A stretch of DNA of 64,000 nt from Desulfobacterales bacterium (GTDB lineage Bacteria > Desulfobacterota > Desulfobacteria > Desulfobacterales > Desulfosalsimonadaceae). This document shows positions 45,707 through 56,509 of the stretch, piece by piece. Below the pieces are notes generated by a model. The model was not told the DNA's origin and did no database searches. It worked only from the letters and a program-made list of their open reading frames with translations. How positions within the stretch are numbered: the stretch's first letter is position 1; each line of letters starts with the position of its first letter. The stretch lies in contig JAGYOX010000001.1 in assembly GCA_018399235.1 (NCBI GenBank), positions 646-64,645 of the forward strand. The letters run 5' to 3'. A program made the translations under genes and the position numbers.

Positions 45707-45804
45707 GGAAGTGCGAAGCTCACTGGTGGGGCTCCCGGACTTCAAATCCGGTGTAGGGCGTTAACACCGTCCTAGGTGGGTTCGATTCCCATGCACTTCC
45801 GCCA
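45707..45804 (+). tRNA. selC: Selenocysteine tRNA (tRNA-Sec, anticodon UCA)
   Basis: 98 nt. 8-bp acceptor stem GGAAGTGC/GCACTTCC, anticodon loop CTTCAAA within GGACTTCAAATCC (as in E. coli selC), long variable arm, GGTTCGATTCC T-arm, discriminator G plus encoded CCA. Confidence 0.9.
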
Positions 45805-45814
45805 AATTTATCGT

Positions 45815-46900
45815 TCAATTGCACAGAATATTATAACAGACAACCGGCTCTGTCTTGTTTTTGACATAAACCTCCCCCCGGCATTCAAAATTAAAATCAC
45901 AGGCACTTTTTCGGAAAGTATTTTCACCGATAATAATCTCTCCGCCTTTGGCCATTTCCTCCAGCCTGGCGGCGACATTGACGCAATCCCCGATAACGGT
46001 ATAGTCCATACGGTTTGACGATCCAATGTTACCGATAATGGCCACTCCAGTGTTGATTCCAATACCTATCTCAAAGTATTCCTGGTTTTCCTGGAGCCTG
46101 CGGGTCATAAGGGCCCGGGTCGCCTGCTGCATTTCAAGAGCCGTCCGGATGGCGTCTTCAGGGGGATTGGTATCTGATTCCACAAGACCAAAAACAGCTA
46201 TCAGCTGATCCCCTACAAACTTGTCCAGTAAACCGTTATTCTTAAAAATAGTATCAACCATGATACTGAAATATTCGTTTAGCATCAAGACGACGTCGTC
46301 CGCCTTCATCCGTTCGGCGATGGCTGTAAATGAACGGATATCGGCGAATAGAATCGTTACTTCACGCCGCTCGGTTTCCAACAGGACGCCATCTTTTAAA
46401 TTGATCAGCTTGTCAACCAGGTTGTTACCGACATACCGACTCAAGCGATTCCTCAGAGCTTCTTCCTGCTTGGTTTTTTTATATGACAGGGCAAGGTCCC
46501 GGGAATAAATCATCAGCTGTGTGGCCTGTTCCTGGTTTTTCCGCTTCATTTTTTCCAGGTTTTGCAACATCCCGTTGACATGGTCAGCAATTTCATTTAA
46601 TTCCCGGTCCGCCTGAATCTGTATCGGCCCTTTGTTTTCACCGCCTTCCAGTCGGGCGATTTCCTGACTGAGAAAAAACAACTGGTCAGCCGACCGACGA
46701 AGCAATGAAAAACCCGACAGGATGGATATCAAAATCAACGGAAGGAAAAAAATAAAGGTCTCAGTGAAGTTTATCTGATTGTTAATGAATAGATAGATCA
46801 GCAACAGATAGGGTATGACGGCCATCATGGCCAGTGCGACGACAATTTTACCTCCAAGGCTCTTATAGTCGCTATAATAGGCTGGTTTTCCCCTTTTCAT
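45815..46900 (-). CDS. Membrane-anchored class III adenylate/guanylate cyclase with HAMP-like linker
   Basis: 361 aa with two N-terminal TM helices. Cyclase homology domain motifs VTILFADIRSFTAIAE, GDQLIAVFG, IGINTGVAIIGNIGS, DYTVIGDCVNVAARLE. Confidence 0.85.
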   Translation of the reverse strand: MKRGKPAYYSDYKSLGGKIVVALAMMAVIPYLLLIYLFINNQINFTETFIFFLPLILISILSGFSLLRRSADQLFFLSQEIARLEGGENKGPIQIQADRELNEIADHVNGMLQNLEKMKRKNQEQATQLMIYSRDLALSYKKTKQEEALRNRLSRYVGNNLVDKLINLKDGVLLETERREVTILFADIRSFTAIAERMKADDVVLMLNEYFSIMVDTIFKNNGLLDKFVGDQLIAVFGLVESDTNPPEDAIRTALEMQQATRALMTRRLQENQEYFEIGIGINTGVAIIGNIGSSNRMDYTVIGDCVNVAARLEEMAKGGEIIIGENTFRKSACDFNFECRGEVYVKNKTEPVVCYNILCN

Positions 46901-47358
46901 TCCTTCATCTCGGGATCGCTGCTGTCAATTCGTTCAAAATCAAACGTCCGATCAAATCGAACAGCCACACGAACCGATCTATCCGCAGAATCTTCCTCCT
47001 TACCTTCAACACGGACAACCGTTGCCTCGGCTCGGATACAGGCTCTGACATCATGGGTTCCAGCCAAATAAATGATCGTTTCGATCTGCTGCCCCGCATA
47101 GTATTTTTCAGGCTGACACGGTAAAAACAAGGCGCCGCCTCCGGATACATCCTGTAATTCACCTTGATCCCAGCTTAAAGCTTTATCATCTCCAGGGAAT
47201 TTTACCGAAACGTCAAATTCAACAGAGTACCGTTTAAAGACCCGTTTGTTCTGTTTTTTGATCATGGTAGGGCCCGAAGATGTCCGAAAAGCATACGTCC
47301 GGCGAGAAAAAGGGCGTTTTAAAGGCAGTCTTAATAAATTTACCAGTCTGTTTCCCAT
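46897..47358 (-). CDS. PilZ-domain protein (canonical c-di-GMP binding motifs)
   Basis: RxxxR (RVFKR) and DxSxxG (DVSGGG) motifs are present. An alternative start at 47265 would give 122 aa. 4-nt overlap with the cyclase start. Confidence 0.8.
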   Translation of the reverse strand: MGNRLVNLLRLPLKRPFSRRTYAFRTSSGPTMIKKQNKRVFKRYSVEFDVSVKFPGDDKALSWDQGELQDVSGGGALFLPCQPEKYYAGQQIETIIYLAGTHDVRACIRAEATVVRVEGKEEDSADRSVRVAVRFDRTFDFERIDSSDPEMKE

Positions 47359-47374
47359 TGAAAAGGTATATATT

Positions 47375-49798
47375 CTATGTAATTACACAAACGCGACGGA
47401 CTTCATTAATATCGGTCAACCCTTTGAATACCTTTAAAATCCCATCCTGCATCAGAGTGGTCATGTCTTCCTGCTTGGCCTGGCGGAATAGTTCCTCGGC
47501 ACTGGCCTGTTTTTTGATCATCCGTTTGACCTCTTTACTCCCATCCATGAGCTCGTGTATGCCCATCCGCCCCTTATACCCGGTTCCGTTGCACTGCTCA
47601 CAACCGACCGGTGCATAAAGCTTTAAATCCGACGTGTACTTGATGCCGGTCTTTTGGAACTCCTCTGGCCCGTAATCGTTTACCATTTCATCAAATTCTT
47701 CTTTTGACGGCGTATACTCCTTGCGGCAGTTTTTACAAAGACGCCTAAGCAGCCGTTGGGCCAAAACCACCAGGAACGCATCGGAAAAGTTCAACGGATT
47801 TAATCCCATATCCAATAGCCGGGTTACGGTTTCAGGCGCGCTGTTGGTATGAAGCGTAGAGAAGACCAGATGGCCGGTAAGTGAGGCTTCAACACCGATG
47901 GAGGCCGTTTCGTAGTCCCGCATCTCACCAACCATAATAACATCCGGGTCGGCCCGCAGAAAAGAGCGCATGATTCTCGCGAAATCCAGGCCGATTTTGT
48001 TTTTAACCTCTACCTGACGCAAGCCGAGCTGGGAAATTTCCACCGGGTCTTCCGCCGTCCAGATTTTGCGATCCGGCGTATTGATATGATGCAGGGCGGA
48101 ATGAAGCGTGGTGGTTTTACCAGACCCGGTTGGGCCGACACACAGAATAATCCCATAGGGCTTATTGATGGCCTTTTTAAGCATCTCATAGTTCCGTTCC
48201 GTCAAACCGAGATCCTCAAGCTGCATAGCGCCGCTGGTAGCCAAAATCCGGAGAACGGCATCCTCATAACCGCCGGCAGTAGGAAGGGTTGCCACCCGGA
48301 GTTCAAACTCCGGAATTCCTCTGCGCTTAAATTTGATCTTGCCATCCTGGGGCATCCGCCGCTCGGCAATATCCAGATTAGACATGATCTTGACCCTTGA
48401 AAGCAGCGCGTGTGCGAATGAATTGGGTATTTCTAAAAAGTCCTGGCAGACCCCGTCAATGCGAAACCGGATCTTGGTTCGTTTGGTCACCGGCGAGGGC
48501 TCTATATGAATATCCGAGGCATCCTTGCGATAAGCGGAAATAAGCATCTGGTCAACCAGCCGAACGACTTTTCCGGAGCCTTCGTCAAGCTCTTCAACAT
48601 CATCTTCTTCCTCTTCATCTTCCTCAAAAGCGATATCCGGCATATCATCCATCGCATTCGAATTCGAATTACTTCCTTCTATCGTCCCTGACTGGTGCGA
48701 CTTTTTCTCTTTGAAAAAAAGATTGATAATTTGCTCAATGTCTTCTTTGATTCCAACGGAAAACATGAATTTATTGGTATTGAACAACGCCTTGGCATGA
48801 TCCAGTTTTCTTAGGTCCTTGGGATCATCCATTAAGATTTCGATATGCCCGACATCCCAATGCACCGGCACCCAGAGATCCTGCAGCAGAAAAGGTTTTT
48901 TCAGGTTGCTGAGCAGTTCATAGGGCACTTCCACCTTTGGATCAAACGTCCGGAACTGACAATTATAGTAAGCGGAGAGCGACTTGCCAATATTATCCTT
49001 GGAGACCTTGAACTGCTCCATAAGAATGAATTCAACGCTTTTTTTCATTTTTTTGGAAAGCGTCAGCGCCTTCTGAAGCTGGACGGTGGATACGATTTCA
49101 TTTTTCAACAGGTAATCGTAGCGGGATTCGTATCGCCGATCCGGCTGCACAGCCTCGAGGCGCTCCTTGATTTTGGGATACACAGGATCAATTTTCTGCA
49201 CCGACTCATAGCATTTTATGGACAGCTCCTTATAATCCCTTTTATCCAATTCCTGACCGAGGTAGAACTTAATTGACGCTTCAGTTTTTTTCGGCAGTTT
49301 ATCTTCTTTTACAATCCGATCAATTTCCTCAGATGCTTCTCCCGGCGGATAAACCGACAGCAGACAGTCCAAAAAATCCTGCAGAAAATCCTCGACCGGG
49401 AACTCGGTCTGAAAAAGCTTCTGGTATTCGGAAACCGCCTCCTTAAATAGCCCCAATTCCTTAAAGGCAGTCGCACTGTCATAGATTTCGGGACCGCTCT
49501 CCCCGATGGAGAGACCGGTTTTGATATGGGTTACATCTTCGGTGGAAAGATCGTACTCCGGTTCCTGGGCATCGTCTTCGATCTCCTGCCTGAGCTCGTC
49601 AATTTTACTCTGGAGTTCATTTCTTCTGGCTTCCTCATCATTGGGCAGTTCTGATAAAACCTGTTGATATATGGCCAACGCCTCATCATATAGCCCGTGG
49701 CCCTCATAGGTATCTGCAGTTTTAAGCCTTGATTCCACATCATTGGTTGTCGTTTGAGCATCTCCCATTTTGATGCCTCCTTTATCACCGGTAATCAT
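47375..49798 (-). CDS. PilB/GspE-family secretion ATPase with about 370-aa N-terminal extension
   Basis: 807 aa. Walker A GPTGSGKTT, Asp box, Walker B DPDVIMVGEMRD, His box GHLVFSTLHTN, tetracysteine CKNC...CEQC. T2SSE_N-like segment at about residue 220-330. TPR-like helices and the acidic run EEDEEEEDDVEE lie upstream. The start may be Met11 (49768). Confidence 0.85.
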   Translation of the reverse strand: MITGDKGGIKMGDAQTTTNDVESRLKTADTYEGHGLYDEALAIYQQVLSELPNDEEARRNELQSKIDELRQEIEDDAQEPEYDLSTEDVTHIKTGLSIGESGPEIYDSATAFKELGLFKEAVSEYQKLFQTEFPVEDFLQDFLDCLLSVYPPGEASEEIDRIVKEDKLPKKTEASIKFYLGQELDKRDYKELSIKCYESVQKIDPVYPKIKERLEAVQPDRRYESRYDYLLKNEIVSTVQLQKALTLSKKMKKSVEFILMEQFKVSKDNIGKSLSAYYNCQFRTFDPKVEVPYELLSNLKKPFLLQDLWVPVHWDVGHIEILMDDPKDLRKLDHAKALFNTNKFMFSVGIKEDIEQIINLFFKEKKSHQSGTIEGSNSNSNAMDDMPDIAFEEDEEEEDDVEELDEGSGKVVRLVDQMLISAYRKDASDIHIEPSPVTKRTKIRFRIDGVCQDFLEIPNSFAHALLSRVKIMSNLDIAERRMPQDGKIKFKRRGIPEFELRVATLPTAGGYEDAVLRILATSGAMQLEDLGLTERNYEMLKKAINKPYGIILCVGPTGSGKTTTLHSALHHINTPDRKIWTAEDPVEISQLGLRQVEVKNKIGLDFARIMRSFLRADPDVIMVGEMRDYETASIGVEASLTGHLVFSTLHTNSAPETVTRLLDMGLNPLNFSDAFLVVLAQRLLRRLCKNCRKEYTPSKEEFDEMVNDYGPEEFQKTGIKYTSDLKLYAPVGCEQCNGTGYKGRMGIHELMDGSKEVKRMIKKQASAEELFRQAKQEDMTTLMQDGILKVFKGLTDINEVRRVCVIT

Positions 49799-50028
49799 AA
49801 AATACGGTTTTCAGGCATTTCACCATCTTACTATATTTTAATAATATTTATAATTATAACAAATTCGGGTTGCTTTGCAAAGAGCAAAAGGACTTTTCAA
49901 CAAATCGGGAAGGCAAATTAGGCAAGGCTTGCGCGCTGTCAGTAAATCCCCGAATACACATACTCCATAATTCAACAACGCGCTCCATTTAATAAGAACT
50001 ACAAAGAACTACATTCATACTTCTTGTC

Positions 50029-50400
50029 TTAAAAAATCTTTTTCCGCAGCAGTTGGCTGATACCTTTGCCGGTTTTTTGTTTATCAAGTACCGGCAACAA
50101 AACCTCACAATTTAATCGGACCATCGACATCGGCGCATGATCATCAAGAATAACCATTAAATAACCGTTATTCGTTTTCCGGATATAAAAACGGCCCTCA
50201 TCAAACATTATTTCAGCTTCTGTGACACCGGTTAATTCTTTAACCATAGAGGACCAGTTTACATTCTTTGTTTTCTCCTCATCGGATTGATAATCTTTTG
50301 TAAATTGAGAAACTGACAGCTCGCCCTCCTCTGTCAGGAATAAAATACCATGAACCCCCTCAATGCCAAGTACGTCTTTAAACATATCCGCCATGATCAA
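50029..50400 (-). CDS. Roadblock/LC7-like protein (second copy in cluster, MglB/MglC-like fold)
   Basis: 123 aa. Pattern GIEGVHGILFLTEEGEL...EAEIMFDEGRFYIRKTNNGYLMVILDDHAPMSMV fits the roadblock alpha-beta-alpha sandwich profile. Confidence 0.6.
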   Translation of the reverse strand: MIMADMFKDVLGIEGVHGILFLTEEGELSVSQFTKDYQSDEEKTKNVNWSSMVKELTGVTEAEIMFDEGRFYIRKTNNGYLMVILDDHAPMSMVRLNCEVLLPVLDKQKTGKGISQLLRKKIF

Positions 50401-50430
50401 TCCCGTTTACCCGATTGCTAAAAGTATAGA

Positions 50431-51558
50431 TCAACTTAGAACCCCTATAATTCGGTCTCTCGGTGCATCCGGATCGATTGAAATAACAGTTGTTTCATCA
50501 TCTTCCGGCAGGACAAGATACTGCCCTTCGCTGCCCTTGCTTGCATAGAGAACATTTAACTGACCGAGATCAAAAATTTCACCGAGATTTGACGCTTGAA
50601 TTATTATCTGATCCCAGTCATCATCCGTATAGATATCGTTAATCCCGCTATGATTACCCAAAGCAGCTGCCAATTGCCTCCGAATCGATTCTACTGCCGA
50701 CAACTCTTCTTCGGGCTCGGTCTCTTCAACTACCGGTGGCGGGTTCTGTGCCCCCTCAACATCAGCCTGGGCTTCAATAGCCTCTGCCTTTACATCCCCC
50801 GGATTTACAGGTTCTTCACCGCTTACAGGTTCATCCAGAACGATTTCATTGCCATCAGCAAGGGCTTGACTGGCTTCCTCGTTTTCATCCTTTGAACGCA
50901 TGGCGTCCAGTAAAATAGCCTGCAAATCCCCTTCGATAAGTTTCTCTTCAAAGACACAATCGTTTTCAATCGAAACAGATACGCTGGACCAGGAAAGAAT
51001 CTCGTATGCGGCCGCCTTGCCTTGTCGACCGGCGATACGGGCATTAACAATGTCACCGTTTCGGAAAAATAGAACCCCACCCAGTTTATTGGTTTTATTG
51101 AGTACATGCAACGTGCAGGTTTGCTGCTCCATTTCCACAAGCTGGAGAAAGGTTTCCAGAGAAACGTTATGCAGATTTCCCCCGGCGACTTTTTTGCGCA
51201 GTATTTTATTGATTTCCCCGGCCAATATATCCGGAGAGAACGGTTTTGTCAGATACCCGGCGGCCCCGCTTCGAAACACCACGTCTTTTGTTTTGGGCCG
51301 GTCATAAGCGGTGACAATAATCACGGGTATATCCGGGTAATTTGCCAAAATCCGCGACAGAAGATCAAACCCGTCTATACCCGGCATGCGCAGGTCCGAT
51401 ACCACCACCACGATATGCTCCTGTTTAAGGATTGCCAGCGCACTGTCTCCGCTATCCGCAGTCCTTATCGCAAAATCCCTTGAATAGCTTCCCAGTTCCT
51501 TGTGCATCAAGCTCAGCCATGACTGGTCATCATCAACAATCAATACTTTGGGCACCAT
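50431..51558 (-). CDS. Response regulator: REC plus DUF4388-like domain, acidic/Pro-rich linker and C-terminal small domain
   Basis: 375 aa. REC (VLIVDDD...SDLRMPGIDG...K). GNLHNVSLETFLQLVEMEQQTCTLHV...GGVLFFRNGDIVNA matches the DUF4388 pattern. The linker is rich in E/P/V. Confidence 0.75.
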   Translation of the reverse strand: MVPKVLIVDDDQSWLSLMHKELGSYSRDFAIRTADSGDSALAILKQEHIVVVVSDLRMPGIDGFDLLSRILANYPDIPVIIVTAYDRPKTKDVVFRSGAAGYLTKPFSPDILAGEINKILRKKVAGGNLHNVSLETFLQLVEMEQQTCTLHVLNKTNKLGGVLFFRNGDIVNARIAGRQGKAAAYEILSWSSVSVSIENDCVFEEKLIEGDLQAILLDAMRSKDENEEASQALADGNEIVLDEPVSGEEPVNPGDVKAEAIEAQADVEGAQNPPPVVEETEPEEELSAVESIRRQLAAALGNHSGINDIYTDDDWDQIIIQASNLGEIFDLGQLNVLYASKGSEGQYLVLPEDDETTVISIDPDAPRDRIIGVLS

Positions 51559-51614
51559 CTATAATATTTTCCCTCCCGGCGGCCTTTTAACAATATACAG
51601 AATTGCTTCTTTGT

Positions 51615-52670
51615 TTAAATCTCTACATCAAACGTATAAATCTCATCAATATATTCTTTATGCCACGATGCCAAGTACTTGCGAAAACTGCCGGCAATAC
51701 CCAGTTCTGATACGATCTCCCTGACGCATTCGACCACCCCCCTAACCAGCTGGGGTTGGGATGCGTTTCCTTTAAACACCAACTGACCGTTTAAATACCT
51801 AAAATCTCCAGCGAATGGATCTAGAAACTCGTATTCATCCACTTTATCCATGAATTTACGATTGAGAAGGGTTTCGAAATCAGCCCGGATTTTTTTATTC
51901 GCCCGAACTACTTTTTCCAGTAAAGAAAGAAGGCTTTGAAGCATTAAAATCACACGTTGCTGATCAGCCTCTTCCGGGGTTTTCCGTTCAGCCGAGGCCT
52001 TTTCAGGTTTTTTAGGGGCTGCTTTTTCAGGTTTGCCTCTGGAGGCTGAAGCTGCTGTTTGTTTGGTTGATGTAATATTGCCCAGATCGGTTTTCCAAAC
52101 ATTGAACAGCCCGCTACGCTCCCCGCATCTTTTAATGAGATCGTCCCTGTATCCCCGGCTTCGATCCACATCGCTCTTTCCTTTTGCCGAAGATCCGCCG
52201 ATGATTTCCCCGTTGAAAAAAAATAACAGGCCCCCACCTGAACTGTCGTTTAACTGAACATCGATATACCCGGTGAGCTTTTCATCCTCCATCTTCTTTA
52301 CAAGCCCTTCCAGATCTGTAAACTCTGAACTCAAATCACTGTATAGGGCACTTGAGTTTGCCAAATTCGACCAGTAATAAAGCCGATCCGGCTGAATCCG
52401 ATACACGGAAACAGAAAAATTATTTCCCGAAGCCGCTTTGATGATACGGTCAACCGCCACTTGACCTGTCACTTCAGATTTTTTGTCCTTGTAGGAGCCG
52501 TTCAGTATATTTTCGTCGTCAAAAAATACAACCGCTTCTGCTGTTGGGGCCTTAAAGTAAATACCGCCGCTCTCCAGCGCCCCCTGATAATGTTCCAGCA
52601 GTTTGTCGATTTTCAGGTAATAGCTGTTTAGATCCTCTATAACCGGCTTCTCTTTGGGTATAATGATCAT
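51615..52670 (-). CDS. Hypothetical protein with two DUF4388-like beta-rich repeats, Lys/Pro linker and unknown C-terminal domain
   Basis: 351 aa. Segments GGIYFKAPTAEAVVFFDDENILNGSY and GYIDVQLNDSSGGGLLFFFNGEIIGGSS resemble the G-x-L-x-F-x-x-G-x-I core of DUF4388. Linker KPEKAAPKKPEKASAERK. Confidence 0.5.
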   Translation of the reverse strand: MIIIPKEKPVIEDLNSYYLKIDKLLEHYQGALESGGIYFKAPTAEAVVFFDDENILNGSYKDKKSEVTGQVAVDRIIKAASGNNFSVSVYRIQPDRLYYWSNLANSSALYSDLSSEFTDLEGLVKKMEDEKLTGYIDVQLNDSSGGGLLFFFNGEIIGGSSAKGKSDVDRSRGYRDDLIKRCGERSGLFNVWKTDLGNITSTKQTAASASRGKPEKAAPKKPEKASAERKTPEEADQQRVILMLQSLLSLLEKVVRANKKIRADFETLLNRKFMDKVDEYEFLDPFAGDFRYLNGQLVFKGNASQPQLVRGVVECVREIVSELGIAGSFRKYLASWHKEYIDEIYTFDVEI

Positions 52671-52783
52671 CTCATTTCAGCTCCTTAATAATATATTATT
52701 GAATGGGCGTAGACAAAACAAGCAATGCGGAACAAACCTCTCCGCATTGCTTGCAAAAATTGATCTTTCTGGTTCCAAGTTGC

Positions 52784-53977
52784 CTATCGACGGCGCCTCA
52801 GCCGTTCAATGGAAAACCTGAGGCTATCCTGCATTCGGGAAATCGCATCCGCCAAGCTACCAATCTCGTCTTTGGCTTTGACCTCAATTTCGGCCTCAAG
52901 ATCGCCAACGCTGATCCGGTCCGCGGCTTCCGTCAGATACTGGATGTTTCGGGTAATCCGATATCCATAGATGGTAATGCAAAGACCGATGATAATGATG
53001 GCGCCGATAAGAATCCCAAAGTTGATGTTTCGGGTATTGGTGGACATCTGAGCGGCCGACTGCTTCAGACTGTCGGTCTTTTTGGTAAACTCATCAATAT
53101 AGGCTGTGGTCATCAAAAGATAGGGCTTGCCCTCCAGCGCAATCGGTGCAACCGCCATGTATTTATCACGGATTTTACCGTCCGGGTCCTTCCAGGAATA
53201 AAATCCCTGTGTTTCTTTGCCGCCCTTGGCCCGGGTTAGGACGTTCCAAAACTGTTCAAAATGCGGGCCCAGCGCCTTTCGGATCATATCAATATCATCG
53301 ATGCCGATAATATTTGGATTGGGATGCGCCCAGATGGTCCAGTCCTGGCCTCTCTCCGGCTCAGGATACTGAATAAGGCAGGAATATCCGGTTTCCCCAA
53401 CGCTTTGTACGGCTATCCCTGAAAAGTCAGGGGCGTAATTGAAGTCCTCTCGTTCCAGATCCGGATGGTTCCGTAAAAAAATCTCGCACTGAATCGCTAC
53501 ATCCCGGGCTTTCTGCATCAGTTTTTCTTTCCCTTCCTCAAGCACGAGATCGGTACTTTTCTCGGTAATGCTGGTCGCCAATTTGTTGAGTTGTTGCTGG
53601 GAGAAAAAACCGGTAAGAGCAATCAAAATAATCGGGATCACCAGAAACAATAGCATCATTTTGCCCCGCAGCCCCAAAAAACCGGAGGGACGAGCTGCAG
53701 AAACCGCTTCAGCACGGGGCCTTTCCTCCCGCGGCGGCGCGCTTGGCACCTCTTCCACGGGCTCTCTTGAAGGCTCTTCGGCCGCTTCCATACCATAACC
53801 GGCCCCACCGCCAAAAGGTTTTGAGGCTTCCGCTTCCTGCTCTTCAATGAGTTTTGACAGATTGGTCACATGACCGCATTCACTGCATCTGACCCGGATA
53901 TTTTTGCCCTTGTACTTCTCAATTTTCTCAGGATCAAGATGGTAAACTTTACCGCACTCCTCACAAATAACCGTCAT
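52784..53977 (-). CDS. Membrane protein: N-terminal cytoplasmic zinc ribbon, periplasmic Cache-like domain, C-terminal HAMP, no output domain
   Basis: 397 aa. CEECG...CSECG (MJ0042-type CxxC-x20-CxxC), an acidic/Pro linker, TM, about 190-aa extracytoplasmic domain, TM, then a HAMP ending the protein (DEIGSLADAISRMQDSL). Confidence 0.7.
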   Translation of the reverse strand: MTVICEECGKVYHLDPEKIEKYKGKNIRVRCSECGHVTNLSKLIEEQEAEASKPFGGGAGYGMEAAEEPSREPVEEVPSAPPREERPRAEAVSAARPSGFLGLRGKMMLLFLVIPIILIALTGFFSQQQLNKLATSITEKSTDLVLEEGKEKLMQKARDVAIQCEIFLRNHPDLEREDFNYAPDFSGIAVQSVGETGYSCLIQYPEPERGQDWTIWAHPNPNIIGIDDIDMIRKALGPHFEQFWNVLTRAKGGKETQGFYSWKDPDGKIRDKYMAVAPIALEGKPYLLMTTAYIDEFTKKTDSLKQSAAQMSTNTRNINFGILIGAIIIIGLCITIYGYRITRNIQYLTEAADRISVGDLEAEIEVKAKDEIGSLADAISRMQDSLRFSIERLRRRR

Positions 53978-54081
53978 GACTCGTCCTCCTTATCAAAATT
54001 GGCAACCTTTTTATTATACTTAAGGACTTTATGCTTAAAACCCACGAAGCCATCTGAATATTAACTTCGCCCGTATGATTT

Positions 54082-54552
54082 TCAGGTTTCAATTTCCCTG
54101 AGCTTTTTAACCATGGATTGCTGAAAAGCCACTTTCCTCTCTTCACGAATTATCTGACGAGCCAGCTGGTCAACCAGTTCCGCCGCCCGATGGGCAGGAA
54201 ATCTTGACGGATCTTCACCCATATCGTTTATCTCATCTTCAATCACCACATCGGCAATCGGTCCCATTGCCCGGGAAAGTTCATTGGAAAGTGCATTAAA
54301 AAAATCCCGCCCCAGCGTTGGCATCGCATCTTTTGCCACCTCAATAAGGCGAAGTTTATGGAGCTTATTTAGGACACCCCGAAGGTGCTTCATATTTACA
54401 TTCAAGGAACGAGCCACTTGAGCAAGATTCTTGGTTCCATCCAGCTCCATTAAAACCTGCAGCATTTCACTATCCAATGAGACTTCACCCAAATCCGCAC
54501 GGACGGTCCGCTTAAGCACCAGCCTGGATATATCCCCTGAAAATTCTACCAT
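54082..54552 (-). CDS. Hypothetical protein with winged-helix-like N-terminal half
   Basis: 156 aa. LQVLMELDGTKNLAQVARSLNVNMKHLRGVLNKLHKLRLIE resembles a MarR/wHTH segment. No other recognisable motif. Confidence 0.5.
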   Translation of the reverse strand: MVEFSGDISRLVLKRTVRADLGEVSLDSEMLQVLMELDGTKNLAQVARSLNVNMKHLRGVLNKLHKLRLIEVAKDAMPTLGRDFFNALSNELSRAMGPIADVVIEDEINDMGEDPSRFPAHRAAELVDQLARQIIREERKVAFQQSMVKKLREIET

Positions 54553-54633
54553 ATATCAGCCTCCGAATGCTAATGACAGCAATCTTCTAGAATAATATTT
54601 TAAATATATCATATTTTAACACCAACAATCAAA

Positions 54634-55359
54634 TCAGGCACCGATATTTTTAATCAGCTGACGCAGAATACGGAACTCCTCCTGAAGCGTTTTTTTAACC
54701 TCAGATAGGATATAATCCGCCATCTCCCGGGACTCCGGAGACAAACTGGGCGGGGCCTGAGCGGGTCGTCTGGCTGACACCGGTTCGGCAGCCTCGGAAG
54801 CAACCTCGAGAGTCTCTGGTGCCTCTTGTTTGGCTAGTACCCGTTGTTTGAACCTTTTATATTTCTTAACCTCGCCGGCGATCATTTTTTTCTTTTCAGC
54901 TTCGCTCAATCCTTTAGAAAGAAGCGCTCTTTCAAATTTTTTAAATACTGATGTGACCAACTTGATGGCATCCGGATCGGCCTTGGCCTTTCTGGCCTTA
55001 ATGTATTTCCCCAGAGACTCATGCAACTTTAGAAACAGCAGGTAAACCCGGTCATCCTTGTACTGGGACTTTAAACGTTTTACCTCCTGAAGGAACTCCT
55101 TCATGGTTTTATCGCTAATCTCCCAATCAATGGAGAAAACCAGCGCTTTTAGATTGTCAATCGGCGTTGTTTCACCTGACTTGGCTTGCATTGACGGGGC
55201 TCCTTGCGTGCGGGGGGATTTTACATCAGAGGCTTTGCTGGTGGGTTTATCAGAAGCATCATTTATCGAACCGTCTTCAGGGGCTTCCCCTCCGAATAAT
55301 TCATCTAACCGGCTGGACACTTCCTCGTTGAGGTTTGTATCTTCATCTTTGGGACCCAA
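54634..55359 (-). CDS. Hypothetical Lys/Glu-rich helical protein with disordered N-terminus
   Basis: 241 aa, no motif I recognise. Starts 22 nt after the mglA stop on the same strand. Confidence 0.5.
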   Translation of the reverse strand: MGPKDEDTNLNEEVSSRLDELFGGEAPEDGSINDASDKPTSKASDVKSPRTQGAPSMQAKSGETTPIDNLKALVFSIDWEISDKTMKEFLQEVKRLKSQYKDDRVYLLFLKLHESLGKYIKARKAKADPDAIKLVTSVFKKFERALLSKGLSEAEKKKMIAGEVKKYKRFKQRVLAKQEAPETLEVASEAAEPVSARRPAQAPPSLSPESREMADYILSEVKKTLQEEFRILRQLIKNIGA

Positions 55360-55381
55360 TGGTTTACCCTCCTGTCGGTAA

Positions 55382-55987
55382 TTATTCGAGTTTTTTTCTT
55401 AAGGACGTAACGGTCAGGGCAATAATTTTTTTCATAGTGGCCGCCACGTTGTCGCCTTTCACCGCACTCGCCTCGAAATACGGGGCCTTCAATCGGCTAT
55501 TTAAATCCTTCTGAAGGGTGTCAACGGATAAAATTGGAATACCTTCTTCTTCCAGGTCCCGCTTATTGTACTGAACAACCAGCGGAATGTTGAAAATGTT
55601 CTTATTGAAGGTTTCCAGGTTCTCTTTTAGGTTTTGCAAAGAGCGAATGTTCATCTCTCGTCGTAAATCCATCGAATCCGCCACAAAGACAAGTCCGTCC
55701 ACGCCTCTTAACACCAGACGCCGCGTGGCGTTATATTTAACCTGACCCGGCACAGTGTATAATTGTACTTTAATGCTGTGGCCTTTTATCTCTCCGATAT
55801 CAAAGGGTAAAAAGTCGAAAAAAAGAGTCCGGTCACCGTAGGTTTTTACTGTGACCATTTCGTTTTGAATACGTTTCTTAAACTTTTGGTTAATATACTC
55901 AAGATTCGTTGTTTTCCCGCCTCGGCCTGGACCGTAATAGACGATTTTGACCTGAACCTCCTTCTTCTTCGGATTTATTAACGCCAA
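55382..55987 (-). CDS. mglA: MglA-type Ras-like small GTPase
   Basis: 201 aa. KIVYYGPGRGGKTTNLEYI, TLFFDFLP, LYTVPGQV (Thr replaces the Ras G3 Asp, as in Myxococcus MglA), GVDGLVFVADS, QYNKRDL. Collinear with M. xanthus MglA as I recall it. Confidence 0.9.
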   Translation of the reverse strand: MALINPKKKEVQVKIVYYGPGRGGKTTNLEYINQKFKKRIQNEMVTVKTYGDRTLFFDFLPFDIGEIKGHSIKVQLYTVPGQVKYNATRRLVLRGVDGLVFVADSMDLRREMNIRSLQNLKENLETFNKNIFNIPLVVQYNKRDLEEEGIPILSVDTLQKDLNSRLKAPYFEASAVKGDNVAATMKKIIALTVTSLRKKLE

Positions 55988-56116
55988 ATCGCTTTCCTCC
56001 AGAAATAATAAGTTAACAATTGCAACAAGCTTTCCCTGTATTTCGGCGGTATGCCAACAACAGCCATTTTATCTTCAAAGCGCTCGACTTGAGAGATCTC
56101 TGTTAAAAATTTCAAA

Positions 56117-56509
56117 CTAAAGCAGTTTTTGAATCCGCTTGATGGCTTCAGCCACTTTAAGCCGTAAAAATCCAAGAGAGACATTTTTATTAAAGATGGT
56201 CAATAACAATAAATCTTCAACCACCTTGCTAAAATGGATACTCTCTTCTTCCCCCTTATGAAAGAGCAATGAAAATTCCTGTTCTCCAATAATATTGGCC
56301 ATCGCACTGACTGCCCCATAGTTGCCGGCTGCCAGGGCAGCCAGCGAAAACACATCATGACCTTTATCGCCGCTGTCCAAGTTAGCGATGACATTACCGG
56401 CTAAATCCATCAAAATAACACTCTGAACGCCCATATCGATCAGTTCCTCCTGGAGGATGTTCTCAATCGATTCAATCTGTTGCTTATCAAATTCAATCGT
56501 AAAATCCAT
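56117..56509 (-). CDS. mglB: MglB-type roadblock/LC7 protein (GAP partner of MglA)
   Basis: 130 aa. MGVQSVILMDLAGNVIA...AALAAGNYGA...LLLTIFNKNVSLGFLRLK is a roadblock pattern. Lies immediately upstream of mglA, as in the Myxococcus mglBA operon. Confidence 0.8.
   Translation of the reverse strand: MDFTIEFDKQQIESIENILQEELIDMGVQSVILMDLAGNVIANLDSGDKGHDVFSLAALAAGNYGAVSAMANIIGEQEFSLLFHKGEEESIHFSKVVEDLLLLTIFNKNVSLGFLRLKVAEAIKRIQKLL

What the first reader, a model, noticed from the sequence alone, without database searches (positions are those of the whole stretch)
45815..49798. Orphan PilB/GspE-type ATPase with long N-terminal extension, coupled to a canonical PilZ protein and a HAMP-cyclase
Seen: the 807-aa ATPase has every catalytic box (Walker A/B, Asp and His boxes, tetracysteine). 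It also has about 370 extra N-terminal residues with TPR-like helices and an EEDEEEEDDVEE run. It is followed after 16 nt by a PilZ protein with intact RxxxR and DxSxxG motifs. A membrane class III cyclase starts with a 4-nt overlap after that. No platform protein (PilC/GspF), pilin, secretin or alignment-complex gene is present within the window. Established: PilB/GspE ATPases normally act with a polytopic platform protein, and PilZ domains bind c-di-GMP. Inference: this is a second-messenger-gated motor ATPase module (c-di-GMP through PilZ, cAMP/cGMP through the cyclase). It lies 230 nt downstream of the MglA cluster on the same strand and may be its effector.
Basis: partly seen in the sequence, partly recalled or inferred. 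Interest (0 to 1): 0.6.

Follow-up and report, generated by a model that had tools for sequence, protein, structure and literature searches.

The report
MglA-linked pilus-type ATPase plus PilZ-cyclase cassette
A sulfate-reducer relative encodes an intact pilus-motor-type ATPase with a fused TPR domain as the last gene of a cell-polarity (MglA) gene cluster, and behind it sits a separately conserved gene pair (a c-di-GMP-binding PilZ protein and a membrane adenylate cyclase) that probably turns one bacterial messenger into another.

Summary
The three genes exist as described, on the minus strand. Catalytic boxes, PilZ motifs and the 16-nt gap and 4-nt overlap all check out.

- **N-terminal extension.** Only about 215-225 N-terminal residues are extra, not about 370. 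Residues 228-805 align end to end with full-length PilB. The extra part is a TPR module. The N1/MshEN fold is present but lacks the c-di-GMP motif in 72 of 72 relatives.
- **Clade.** The ATPase belongs to a Desulfobacterales-only clade. It is sister to a GAF-fused clade and lies outside the PilB and GspE reference groups.
- **Link to MglA.** Its conserved partner is the upstream mglB-mglA...REC/PATAN cluster, found together across several families. In minimal forms the order is mglA, sometimes a PATAN gene, then the ATPase.
- **PilZ and cyclase.** These two are a separate cassette. They follow the ATPase in only one family. Elsewhere the same pair sits behind a histidine kinase, a REC protein and an HD-GYP phosphodiesterase, with no ATPase.
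- **Cyclase chemistry.** The specificity residues (Lys/Thr) indicate an adenylate cyclase, not a guanylate cyclase.
- **Pilus genes.** Platform (pilC) and pilMNOPQ genes exist but are unlinked.

Best reading: an MglA-controlled PilB-like motor, with a c-di-GMP-to-cAMP cassette co-located behind it. This is a new variant of a known kind.

The parts
47375..49798 (-). PilB/GspE-superfamily ATPase, 807 aa from the first ATG and probably 797 aa from M11 at 49768
   Evidence: Pfam T2SSE 407 bits and MshEN 33.6 bits. The NCBIfam PilB and GspE equivalog scores are below their cut-offs. All catalytic boxes are invariant. A Shine-Dalgarno sequence precedes M11.
49124..49768 (-). N-terminal TPR module (aa 11-225), the true extension
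   Evidence: The AlphaFold2 model has helices 14-217 with pLDDT about 90. Foldseek finds CTPR, OGT and SPY TPR superhelices. Pfam gives TPR_14. phmmer hits the C-terminal TPR part of 1,000-1,200-aa Myxococcota TPR proteins.
48683..49123 (-). N1 (ND0/ND1, MshEN/GSPII fold) domain without the c-di-GMP motif
   Evidence: It aligns with PilB residues 8-170. Foldseek finds PilF-GSPIIB, MshE-N 5htl, XpsE-N and the X. citri PilB-N:PilZ complex 7lko. Neither the strict nor the relaxed MshEN motif matches in 0 of 72 relatives, while a control PilB matches.
48578..48682 (-). Acidic flexible linker (EEDEEEEDDVEE), aa 373-407
   Evidence: pLDDT is below 50. Acidic composition is conserved in orthologues. 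It corresponds to the N1-N2 linker of PilB.
47378..48577 (-). N2 plus C-terminal ATPase core with Walker A/B, Asp and His boxes and a Zn tetracysteine
   Evidence: phmmer scores to PDB: 345 bits to T. thermophilus PilF and M. xanthus PilB, 330 bits to GspE. The motifs are invariant.
46897..47358 (-). Single-domain canonical PilZ protein (153 aa) with an N-terminal tail of about 35 aa
   Evidence: Pfam PilZ 28.4 bits against a cut-off of 22.5. RxxxR and [D/N]xSxxG are present in 43 of 43 orthologues. The AlphaFold2 beta-barrel best matches c-di-GMP-bound PilZ domains 4xrn, YcgR, MotI and MapZ.
45815..46900 (-). Membrane class IIIb adenylate cyclase: 2 TM, HAMP-like segment, cyclase homology domain
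   Evidence: Pfam Guanylate_cyc 103.6 bits. HAMP is weak here but found in 21 of 25 orthologues. D187, D231, K227, T301, N308 and R312 are invariant. The best PDB matches are CyaB-type adenylate cyclases.
49853..49881 (-). Promoter-like site (TTTGCA-17-TATAAT, extended -10) in the 230-nt gap upstream of the ATPase
   Evidence: Consensus scan, 10 of 12 matches. This is pattern-level evidence only. The gap is 20-400 nt in orthologous loci.
50029..56509 (-). Upstream co-directional cluster to which the ATPase belongs. Gene order: Roadblock/MglB, MglA, x241, x156, Zn-ribbon/HAMP protein, x351, REC-PATAN, roadblock-like x123.
   Evidence: Pfam hits. Synteny with the ATPase in 20 plus 80 loci.

Best explanation
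Two units lie side by side.

**Unit 1: the ATPase.**
- It is a catalytically intact hexameric motor of the PilB/GspE superfamily.
- It belongs to a Desulfobacterales-specific clade.
- It is the output gene of the mglB-mglA-...-REC/PATAN polarity cluster.
- Its fused TPR module and the PATAN response regulator are inferred to be the docking sites through which MglA-GTP recruits or activates it. M. xanthus does this in trans (MglA-GTP, then the TPR protein SgmX, then PilB). Cyanobacteria do it with PATAN-REC proteins that bind PilB1.
- It then most likely drives pilus extension on the unlinked PilC/PilMNOPQ machine.
- Its N1 domain keeps the MshEN fold but has lost the c-di-GMP motif.

**Unit 2: PilZ plus the 2TM-HAMP adenylate cyclase.**
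- This is an independent, translationally coupled cassette.
- PilZ binds c-di-GMP and is inferred to regulate the cyclase, so c-di-GMP level is converted into cAMP synthesis.
- In one family this cassette moved from behind an HK-REC-HD-GYP operon to behind the ATPase. That gives co-expression with the motor.
- PilZ may also dock onto the motif-less N1 domain, as Xanthomonas PilZ does on PilB.

**Shown:** domain content, motifs, clade placement, synteny and phyletic patterns.
**Inferred:** every protein-protein contact, the pilus output, and the direction of regulation.
For: **ATPase is intact and PilB-like.**
- Residues 228-805 are colinear with full-length PilB.
- All catalytic boxes are invariant.

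**Distinct clade.**
- TPR and GAF clades are sisters with 100/100 support, apart from the PilB, PilF and GspE references.
- It scores below the PilB and GspE equivalog cut-offs.

**Link to MglA.**
- The full cluster sits next to the ATPase in all same-family loci and in four other families.
- Compact forms are mglA-PATAN-ATPase or mglA-ATPase.
- Phyletic co-occurrence among 16 other-family genomes is 6 both, 9 neither, 1 ATPase only. One-sided Fisher p is about 9e-4 by hand calculation.

**TPR module.**
- The model and fold search agree on a TPR superhelix.
- It matches colinearly, at 25-27% identity, the C-terminal TPR part of SgmX-sized Myxococcota proteins. One of these is encoded just after pilNOPQ.
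- MglA-GTP binds SgmX C-terminal TPR12-14 (PMC7668184), and SgmX localises PilB (PMC7519303).
- PATAN response regulators bind PilB1 (bioRxiv 10.1101/2021.06.11.447907).

**MshEN motif.** It is absent in 72 of 72 relatives (motif from PMC5013675).

**PilZ-cyclase as a unit.**
- The 4-nt overlap occurs in 30 of 46 loci.
- The pair is found as HK-REC-HD-GYP-PilZ-cyclase without any ATPase in G040 and four metagenome contigs.
- Both genes are absent together next to the distant ATPases.

**Cyclase residues.** They are complete and of the adenylate type.

**Messengers and pilus genes.**
- The genome has 9 GGDEF genes and at least 9 cNMP-binding genes.
- An unlinked pilC (pilS/pilR assigned by gene order and size only) and pilMNOPQ exist in the genus.
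Against: - No interaction or activity has been measured.
- Identity of the Myxococcota TPR proteins with SgmX was not tested, and TPR-TPR similarity can be generic.
- The same genus also has an orphan 607-aa MshEN-PilB that could be the real partner of the orphan PilC. The TPR-ATPase might therefore serve another machine or none.
- The triad is conserved across a whole family (46 loci), which would also fit a direct PilZ-ATPase function.
- A promoter-like site in the 230-nt gap means the ATPase need not be co-transcribed with mglBA here.
Confidence: 0.55

Rival explanations
1. ATPase, PilZ and cyclase form one functional module. c-di-GMP-loaded PilZ docks on the ATPase N1 domain and gates the motor, and the cyclase adds a cAMP input or output.
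For: - The triad is conserved in every same-family locus with enough flank.
- The ATPase-to-PilZ spacing is short, median about 27 nt.
- N1 lacks its own c-di-GMP motif.
- N1 structurally matches the X. citri PilB N-domain that binds PilZ, 7lko (PMC8389850).
Against: - The PilZ-cyclase pair occurs without the ATPase in five independent loci, next to an HD-GYP phosphodiesterase.
- The ATPase occurs without PilZ or cyclase in all more distant clades. There a REC-PAS gene or rsmG follows instead.
- The tightest coupling (ATGA overlap) is between PilZ and the cyclase, not between PilZ and the ATPase.
[quoted passage not shown] It is not among the top 50 fold matches.
Confidence: 0.2
2. The ATPase works without any pilus platform. 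It would be a nucleotide-driven signalling or scaffold component of the MglA polarity module, as M. xanthus PilB also signals to exopolysaccharide production.
For: - No platform, pilin or alignment gene lies near it in any of 100 loci.
- Its sister GAF clade is a lone gene among metabolic genes.
- A canonical-size orphan PilB exists in the same genus for the orphan PilC.
- There is precedent for PilB as a signalling protein (PMC5544727).
Against: - The Zn tetracysteine, N2 domain and all catalytic residues are under strong conservation, as in working motors.
- Pilus genes are scattered in this lineage anyway. pilC, pilMNOPQ and pilT/U are each unlinked, so lack of linkage says little.
- In this assembly no other PilB-size orthologue was found.
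Confidence: 0.15
3. The adjacency of the PilZ-cyclase cassette to the ATPase has no functional meaning. It would be one ancestral rearrangement inherited by one family.
For: - The cassette is found next to the ATPase in a single family only, and elsewhere in a different operon.
- Housekeeping genes (M20 peptidase, LarC, PgpA) follow directly.
Against: - Order, orientation and short spacing are kept across at least 13 genera at only 35-75% PilZ identity.
- In other clades the same position holds another signalling gene, REC-PAS, sometimes followed by MCP-CheW-CheA. This suggests selection for a signalling partner at this site.
Confidence: 0.2

Closest known systems
Myxococcus xanthus MglA-GTP / SgmX (TPR) / PilB pathway, and Bdellovibrio MglA / Bd2492 (TPR) / RomR / CdgA hub
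   Same: - A Ras-like MglA with a Roadblock GAP, a TPR element, a response regulator and a PilB-type ATPase act together.
- In Bdellovibrio a c-di-GMP receptor joins the hub (PMC7519303, PMC7668184, PMC3983030).
- The TPR module here resembles the C-terminal TPR part of SgmX-sized Myxococcota proteins.
   Different: - Here the TPR module is fused to the ATPase, and the ATPase is encoded in the mglBA cluster itself.
- The partners are PATAN-REC, a Zn-ribbon/HAMP protein and unnamed proteins, not RomR/RomX/FrzS.
- The ATPase is not an orthologue of PilB.
Xanthomonas/Pseudomonas PilB-PilZ-FimX complex
   Same: A PilB whose MshEN-like N-domain lacks the c-di-GMP motif, with a small PilZ protein nearby in function (PMC8389850). 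The N1 fold matches 7lko.
   Different: [quoted passage not shown]
- The PilZ here has intact RxxxR and DxSxxG motifs.
- It is translationally coupled to a cyclase, and the pair also exists without any PilB-like gene.
Vibrio cholerae MshE / T. thermophilus PilF (MshEN c-di-GMP receptor ATPases)
   Same: The same N-domain fold and the same ATPase superfamily.
   Different: Both 24-residue binding motifs are missing. The sequence reads SRYDYLL... and KSVEFIL... instead of RLGxxLL..., and these variants are invariant in the clade.
Cyanobacterial PATAN-REC regulators (PixG/PixE/TaxP type) acting on PilB1
   Same: A PATAN plus receiver protein is functionally tied to a PilB-type ATPase (bioRxiv 10.1101/2021.06.11.447907). 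The MglA-PATAN gene neighbourhood has been noted before (PMC4316618).
   Different: - The domain order here is REC then PATAN.
- It is linked to MglA/MglB.
- Binding has not been tested.
Pseudomonas aeruginosa CyaB (class IIIb adenylate cyclase of the Pil-Chp surface-sensing pathway)
   Same: It is among the closest solved catalytic domains (3r5g, 113 bits; only the CyaB1-derived chimera 6fht scores higher) and has the same Lys/Thr adenylate signature. It is a cyclase functionally tied to type IV pili (PMC11656802).
   Different: - The N-terminus here is 2 TM plus a HAMP-like segment.
- The cyclase is paired with a PilZ gene.
- No Chp system is adjacent in this family.

Membership tests
PilB/GspE/PilT secretion-ATPase superfamily (Pfam T2SSE PF00437) | Profile match above the gathering score, with Walker A/B, Asp box and His box | tested here: met
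   407.3 bits against a cut-off of 24.9. The motifs are invariant in 20 orthologues.
Type IVa pilus assembly ATPase PilB (NCBIfam TIGR02538 equivalog) | Score at or above the equivalog cut-off, and placement with reference PilB | tested here: not met
   514 bits against a cut-off of 675.65. In the tree it sits in its own clade with the GAF paralogues (100/100), apart from M. xanthus and Geobacter PilB.
Type IVa pilus assembly ATPase PilB | Works with the PilC platform and PilM-Q, usually with gene linkage to pilT/pilC | tested here: not met
   No T2SSF, secretin or PilM gene lies on the contig or in 100 related loci. Physical partnership cannot be tested with these tools.
Type II secretion ATPase GspE (NCBIfam TIGR02533 equivalog) | Score at or above the equivalog cut-off, in a gsp operon context | tested here: not met
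   484.7 bits against a cut-off of 630.25. The genome's real GspE is on contig C251, inside a cluster with a secretin and an N-terminal GspL/PilM-like match; the pseudopilin, GspL and GspM calls rest on gene order, size and N-terminal motifs. It scores 468 bits to V. cholerae EpsE.
MshE-type c-di-GMP receptor (MshEN domain) | MshEN/GSPII fold | tested here: met
   Pfam MshEN 33.6 bits. Foldseek matches PilF-GSPIIB and MshE 5htl with target-normalised TM-score about 0.6.
MshE-type c-di-GMP receptor (MshEN domain) | [quoted passage not shown] | tested here: not met
   0 of 72 clade members match either the strict or the relaxed pattern. A canonical PilB from a relative matches as a positive control. 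The alignment shows the R/G/Q positions replaced.
Canonical c-di-GMP-binding PilZ domain | PilZ profile match plus RxxxR and [D/N]xSxxG motifs | tested here: met
   28.4 bits against a cut-off of 22.5. The motifs are present in 43 of 43 orthologues. The top fold matches are c-di-GMP-bound PilZ domains.
Canonical c-di-GMP-binding PilZ domain | Actual c-di-GMP binding | not testable with these tools
   This needs ITC or DRaCALA with purified protein.
Class III adenylate cyclase (subclass IIIb) | Cyclase homology domain with two metal Asp, a transition-state Asn/Arg, and a Lys + Thr substrate pair | tested here: met
   PF00211 103.6 bits. D187, D231, K227, T301, N308 and R312 are invariant in 25-39 orthologues. 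The alignment to CyaB 3r5g shows the same DKFVGD and DYT(V/I)IG blocks.
HAMP-linked cyclase | HAMP domain between the membrane anchor and the catalytic domain | tested here: inconclusive
   The window protein gives E 0.011 and 16.5 bits, below the 25-bit cut-off. 21 of 25 orthologues hit HAMP, best E 4.3e-6.
SgmX/Bd2492-type MglA-binding TPR effector | Homology of the TPR module to the MglA-binding C-terminal TPRs of SgmX | tested here: inconclusive
   There are significant colinear matches to the C-terminal 130-175 aa of SgmX-sized Myxococcota TPR proteins: library E-values 8e-12 to 1e-9, 25-27% identity. One of these proteins is encoded after pilNOPQ. M. xanthus SgmX itself was not available for comparison.
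MglA/MglB polarity cluster of Desulfobacterales | Conserved gene order with mglB, mglA, Zn-ribbon/HAMP and REC-PATAN, plus phyletic co-occurrence | tested here: met

The most novel reading that the evidence does not exclude
Two linked novelties remain open.

1. The PilZ/2TM-HAMP-cyclase pair may be a direct c-di-GMP-gated adenylate cyclase. It would be a two-protein device that converts c-di-GMP level into cAMP. I found no report of such a device in the searched literature.

2. The TPR-ATPase fusion may be a 'Rosetta stone'. It would show that MglA-GTP acts on PilB-type motors through an SgmX-type TPR module, with the motor built into the polarity operon.

Together, in one family, they would form a polarity-switch motor whose activity is reported or tuned by two second messengers.
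Probability: 0.3. Interest if true: 0.75.

Novelty: new variant of a known kind. Interest (0 to 1): 0.6.

Why it matters
- **MglA to PilB link.** In Myxococcus it is still not settled whether the MglA/SgmX complex touches PilB directly. A natural fusion of an SgmX-like TPR module to a PilB-family motor, encoded inside an mglBA operon and conserved across an order, gives a simple system to test that link. The tests would be binding, structure and localisation.
- **c-di-GMP to cAMP cross-talk.** The separately conserved PilZ-cyclase pair, found next to an HD-GYP phosphodiesterase elsewhere, offers a testable molecular route for this cross-talk. The effect has been observed physiologically in other bacteria, to my knowledge without a defined direct mechanism.
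- **Annotation.** These proteins are currently labelled generically, some even as 'TadA'. They form a defined clade with a defined genomic partner.

Tried and rejected
- **c-di-GMP site in N1:** rejected by alignment and by a pattern test with a positive control.
- **Guanylate cyclase reading:** rejected by the Lys/Thr specificity residues.
- **'About 370 extra residues':** rejected by the end-to-end alignment with PilB.
- **Platform genes just outside the window:** rejected. The window covers nearly the whole contig, and T2SSF genes lie on other contigs. In a complete relative pilC is 466 kb away.
- **PDB sequence search with the N1 segment alone:** no meaningful hit.
- **PDB sequence search with PilZ:** only chance hits to adenovirus hexon.
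- **REC gene after the ATPase in distant clades:** tested as a possible hidden PilZ. It is REC-PAS.
- **Naming the SgmX-like proteins through cluster names:** only 'TPR repeat protein' or 'FimV' labels were returned.
- **'Donor site' of the cassette in same-family genomes:** HK and REC-HD-GYP genes are present with no PilZ after them. This is suggestive only.

Full report
**What is there.** All three genes lie on the minus strand: the ATPase at 47375-49798, PilZ at 46897-47358 and the cyclase at 45815-46900.
- The ATPase matches Pfam T2SSE (407 bits) and MshEN, with one TPR hit. PilZ and the cyclase match their Pfam families.
- An alignment of 20 orthologues shows Walker A, the Asp box, Walker B, the His box and the four Zn cysteines as invariant.
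- The likely start is M11 at 49768. AGGAGG lies 7 nt upstream, and public gene calls for relatives are 794-798 aa.
- The genome is a 3.47-Mb, 299-contig MAG. Named relatives are Desulfobacterales: Desulfosalsimonadaceae, Desulfococcus, Desulfonema, Desulfosarcina and the Olavius symbiont Delta 1.

**Anatomy of the ATPase.**
- Residues 228-805 align end to end with full-length M. xanthus and Geobacter PilB. Only about 215-225 residues are therefore additional.
- An AlphaFold2 model of residues 1-410 has mean pLDDT 81.6. It shows an all-helical module (helices 14-217) followed by the N1 domain.
- Foldseek returns TPR superhelices for the first part. For the second it returns PilF-GSPIIB, MshE-N, XpsE-N and the X. 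citri PilB-N:PilZ complex.
- The two 24-residue c-di-GMP motifs defined for MshEN (PMC5013675) are replaced by SRYDYLL... and KSVEFIL..., which are invariant in the clade.
- None of 72 clade members matches even the relaxed pattern. A canonical PilB from a relative does match.

**Which ATPase family.**
- The NCBIfam PilB and GspE equivalog scores are below their cut-offs.
- PDB scores to PilF, PilB and GspE cores are nearly equal, at 345, 345 and 330 bits. The genome's real GspE, in a gsp cluster on C251, scores 468 bits to EpsE.
- In a maximum-likelihood tree the TPR-type proteins form one clade (99/98). It is sister (100/100) to a GAF-fused clade and separate from the PilB, PilF and GspE references. 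Deeper branching is unresolved.
- Public names for these proteins are generic.

**Genomic partner of the ATPase.**
- The block Roadblock-MglA-x241-x156-Zn-ribbon/HAMP-x351-REC/PATAN-x123-ATPase is intact in every same-family genome examined. It is also intact in four other families at about 55% ATPase identity.
- Among 80 named loci the same holds. Compact versions are mglA-PATAN-ATPase or mglA-ATPase.
- In 16 genomes of other families, the ATPase and the cluster marker x156 are both present in 6 and both absent in 9. The ATPase is alone in 1.
- The MglA-PATAN neighbourhood is known (PMC4316618). I found no report of a PilB-type gene in it.
I re-derived it independently.

**The TPR module.**
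- A full-library phmmer search with residues 11-228 gives only 449 hits.
- Besides orthologues, it repeatedly hits the C-terminal 130-175 residues of 1,000-1,200-aa all-TPR proteins, with E-values from 8e-12 to 1e-9.
- These matches are colinear at 25-27% identity. The proteins come from Myxococcota, and one is encoded shortly after pilNOPQ.
- SgmX of M. xanthus is about 1,060 aa and all-TPR. It binds MglA-GTP through its C-terminal TPR12-14 and is needed for polar PilB (PMC7668184, PMC7519303).
- That these proteins are SgmX orthologues is a lead, not a result.

**PilZ and the cyclase.**
- PilZ keeps RxxxR and [D/N]xSxxG in 43 of 43 orthologues. Its model resembles c-di-GMP-bound PilZ domains.
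- The cyclase has two TM helices with a very short loop. It has a HAMP-like segment that is weak here but found in 21 of 25 orthologues.
- It has all six catalytic residues, with the Lys/Thr adenylate signature.
- PilZ and the cyclase overlap by 4 nt in 30 of 46 loci.
- Outside one family the pair is not next to the ATPase. There the ATPase is followed by a REC-PAS gene, sometimes with MCP-CheW-CheA, or by rsmG (rsmG assigned from its sequence motif only, not tested).
- The pair itself is found as HK-REC-HD-GYP-PilZ-cyclase in another family's genome and in four metagenome contigs, with no ATPase.
- PilZ-cyclase is therefore its own unit, most simply a c-di-GMP-regulated adenylate cyclase.
- The genome has 9 GGDEF genes and at least 9 cNMP-binding genes.

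**Is the ATPase really orphan?**
- In this assembly, T2SSF genes are on C113 and C209 only.
- In a same-genus genome of 8 contigs, one pilC is followed by two genes provisionally read as pilS and pilR (gene order and size only, no family search) and has no ATPase beside it. It lies 466 kb from the TPR-ATPase. pilMNOPQ and pilT/U are elsewhere, and a 607-aa MshEN-PilB and the GAF paralogue are also unlinked.
- Lack of linkage is the rule in this lineage and does not argue against a pilus role.
- The 607-aa PilB has no orthologue in this assembly. The assembly is 93% complete.

**Operon structure.**
- A promoter-like site lies in the 230-nt gap, and no convincing terminator was seen.
- The corresponding gap is 20-400 nt in relatives.
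- RNA evidence could not be obtained.

**Verdict.**
The ATPase is the MglA cluster's motor, and this is well supported.
- The 'triad' is a family-specific juxtaposition of that motor with an independent PilZ-adenylate-cyclase cassette.
- All contacts and activities remain to be measured.

Noticed in passing
own genome contig C2:16987-19341 (outside the window); L114:7850-10180: There is a GAF-fused paralogue (784 aa) with the same motif-less N1 domain. It is the sister clade of the TPR-ATPase and is present in nearly all genomes of the order. It is a lone gene among TetR and methylmalonyl-CoA mutase genes.
   Followed up: partly
own genome contig C78:795-3326 (outside the window): There is an 843-aa ATPase with receiver domains at both ends. 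It lies upstream of a Zn-ribbon protein and a type IV pilin-like gene (FTLLEVMIVLAI...). It sits on a very long branch in the tree.
   Followed up: no
own genome contig C31:3243-4973 (outside the window): There is a 576-aa T2SSE-like protein with a degenerate Walker A (GGPDTAAQTA), likely a catalytically dead paralogue. It is flanked by response-regulator genes.
   Followed up: no
window 45707-45804 (+): A tRNA-Sec (anticodon TCA) lies convergent to the cyclase gene, 10 nt from its stop.
   Followed up: yes
L075-L078 (about 9.2-13.3 kb in L075): In a more distant clade the ATPase is followed by a REC-PAS gene and an MCP; the two genes after that are read as CheW and CheA from their size and sequence only. 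This is a different signalling add-on at the same position as the PilZ-cyclase pair.
   Followed up: partly
L014:10108-12673; L026:5032-8784; L028:5825-8953: There are tandem duplications inside the MglA cluster in some relatives: two Zn-ribbon/HAMP genes, or two REC-PATAN + x123 pairs.
   Followed up: no
G002:C6:790700-796230 (relative genome): A REC-HD-GYP gene, orthologous to the one that precedes PilZ-cyclase elsewhere, lies about 3 kb from a pair of PilT-like ATPase genes.
   Followed up: no
window 52784-53977 (-) and 45815-46900 (-): The cluster's Zn-ribbon/2TM/HAMP protein ends right after HAMP and has no output domain. The cyclase has a HAMP-like segment and no sensor domain. A heteromeric pairing is conceivable, but the two do not always co-occur.
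   Followed up: no
   Followed up: partly
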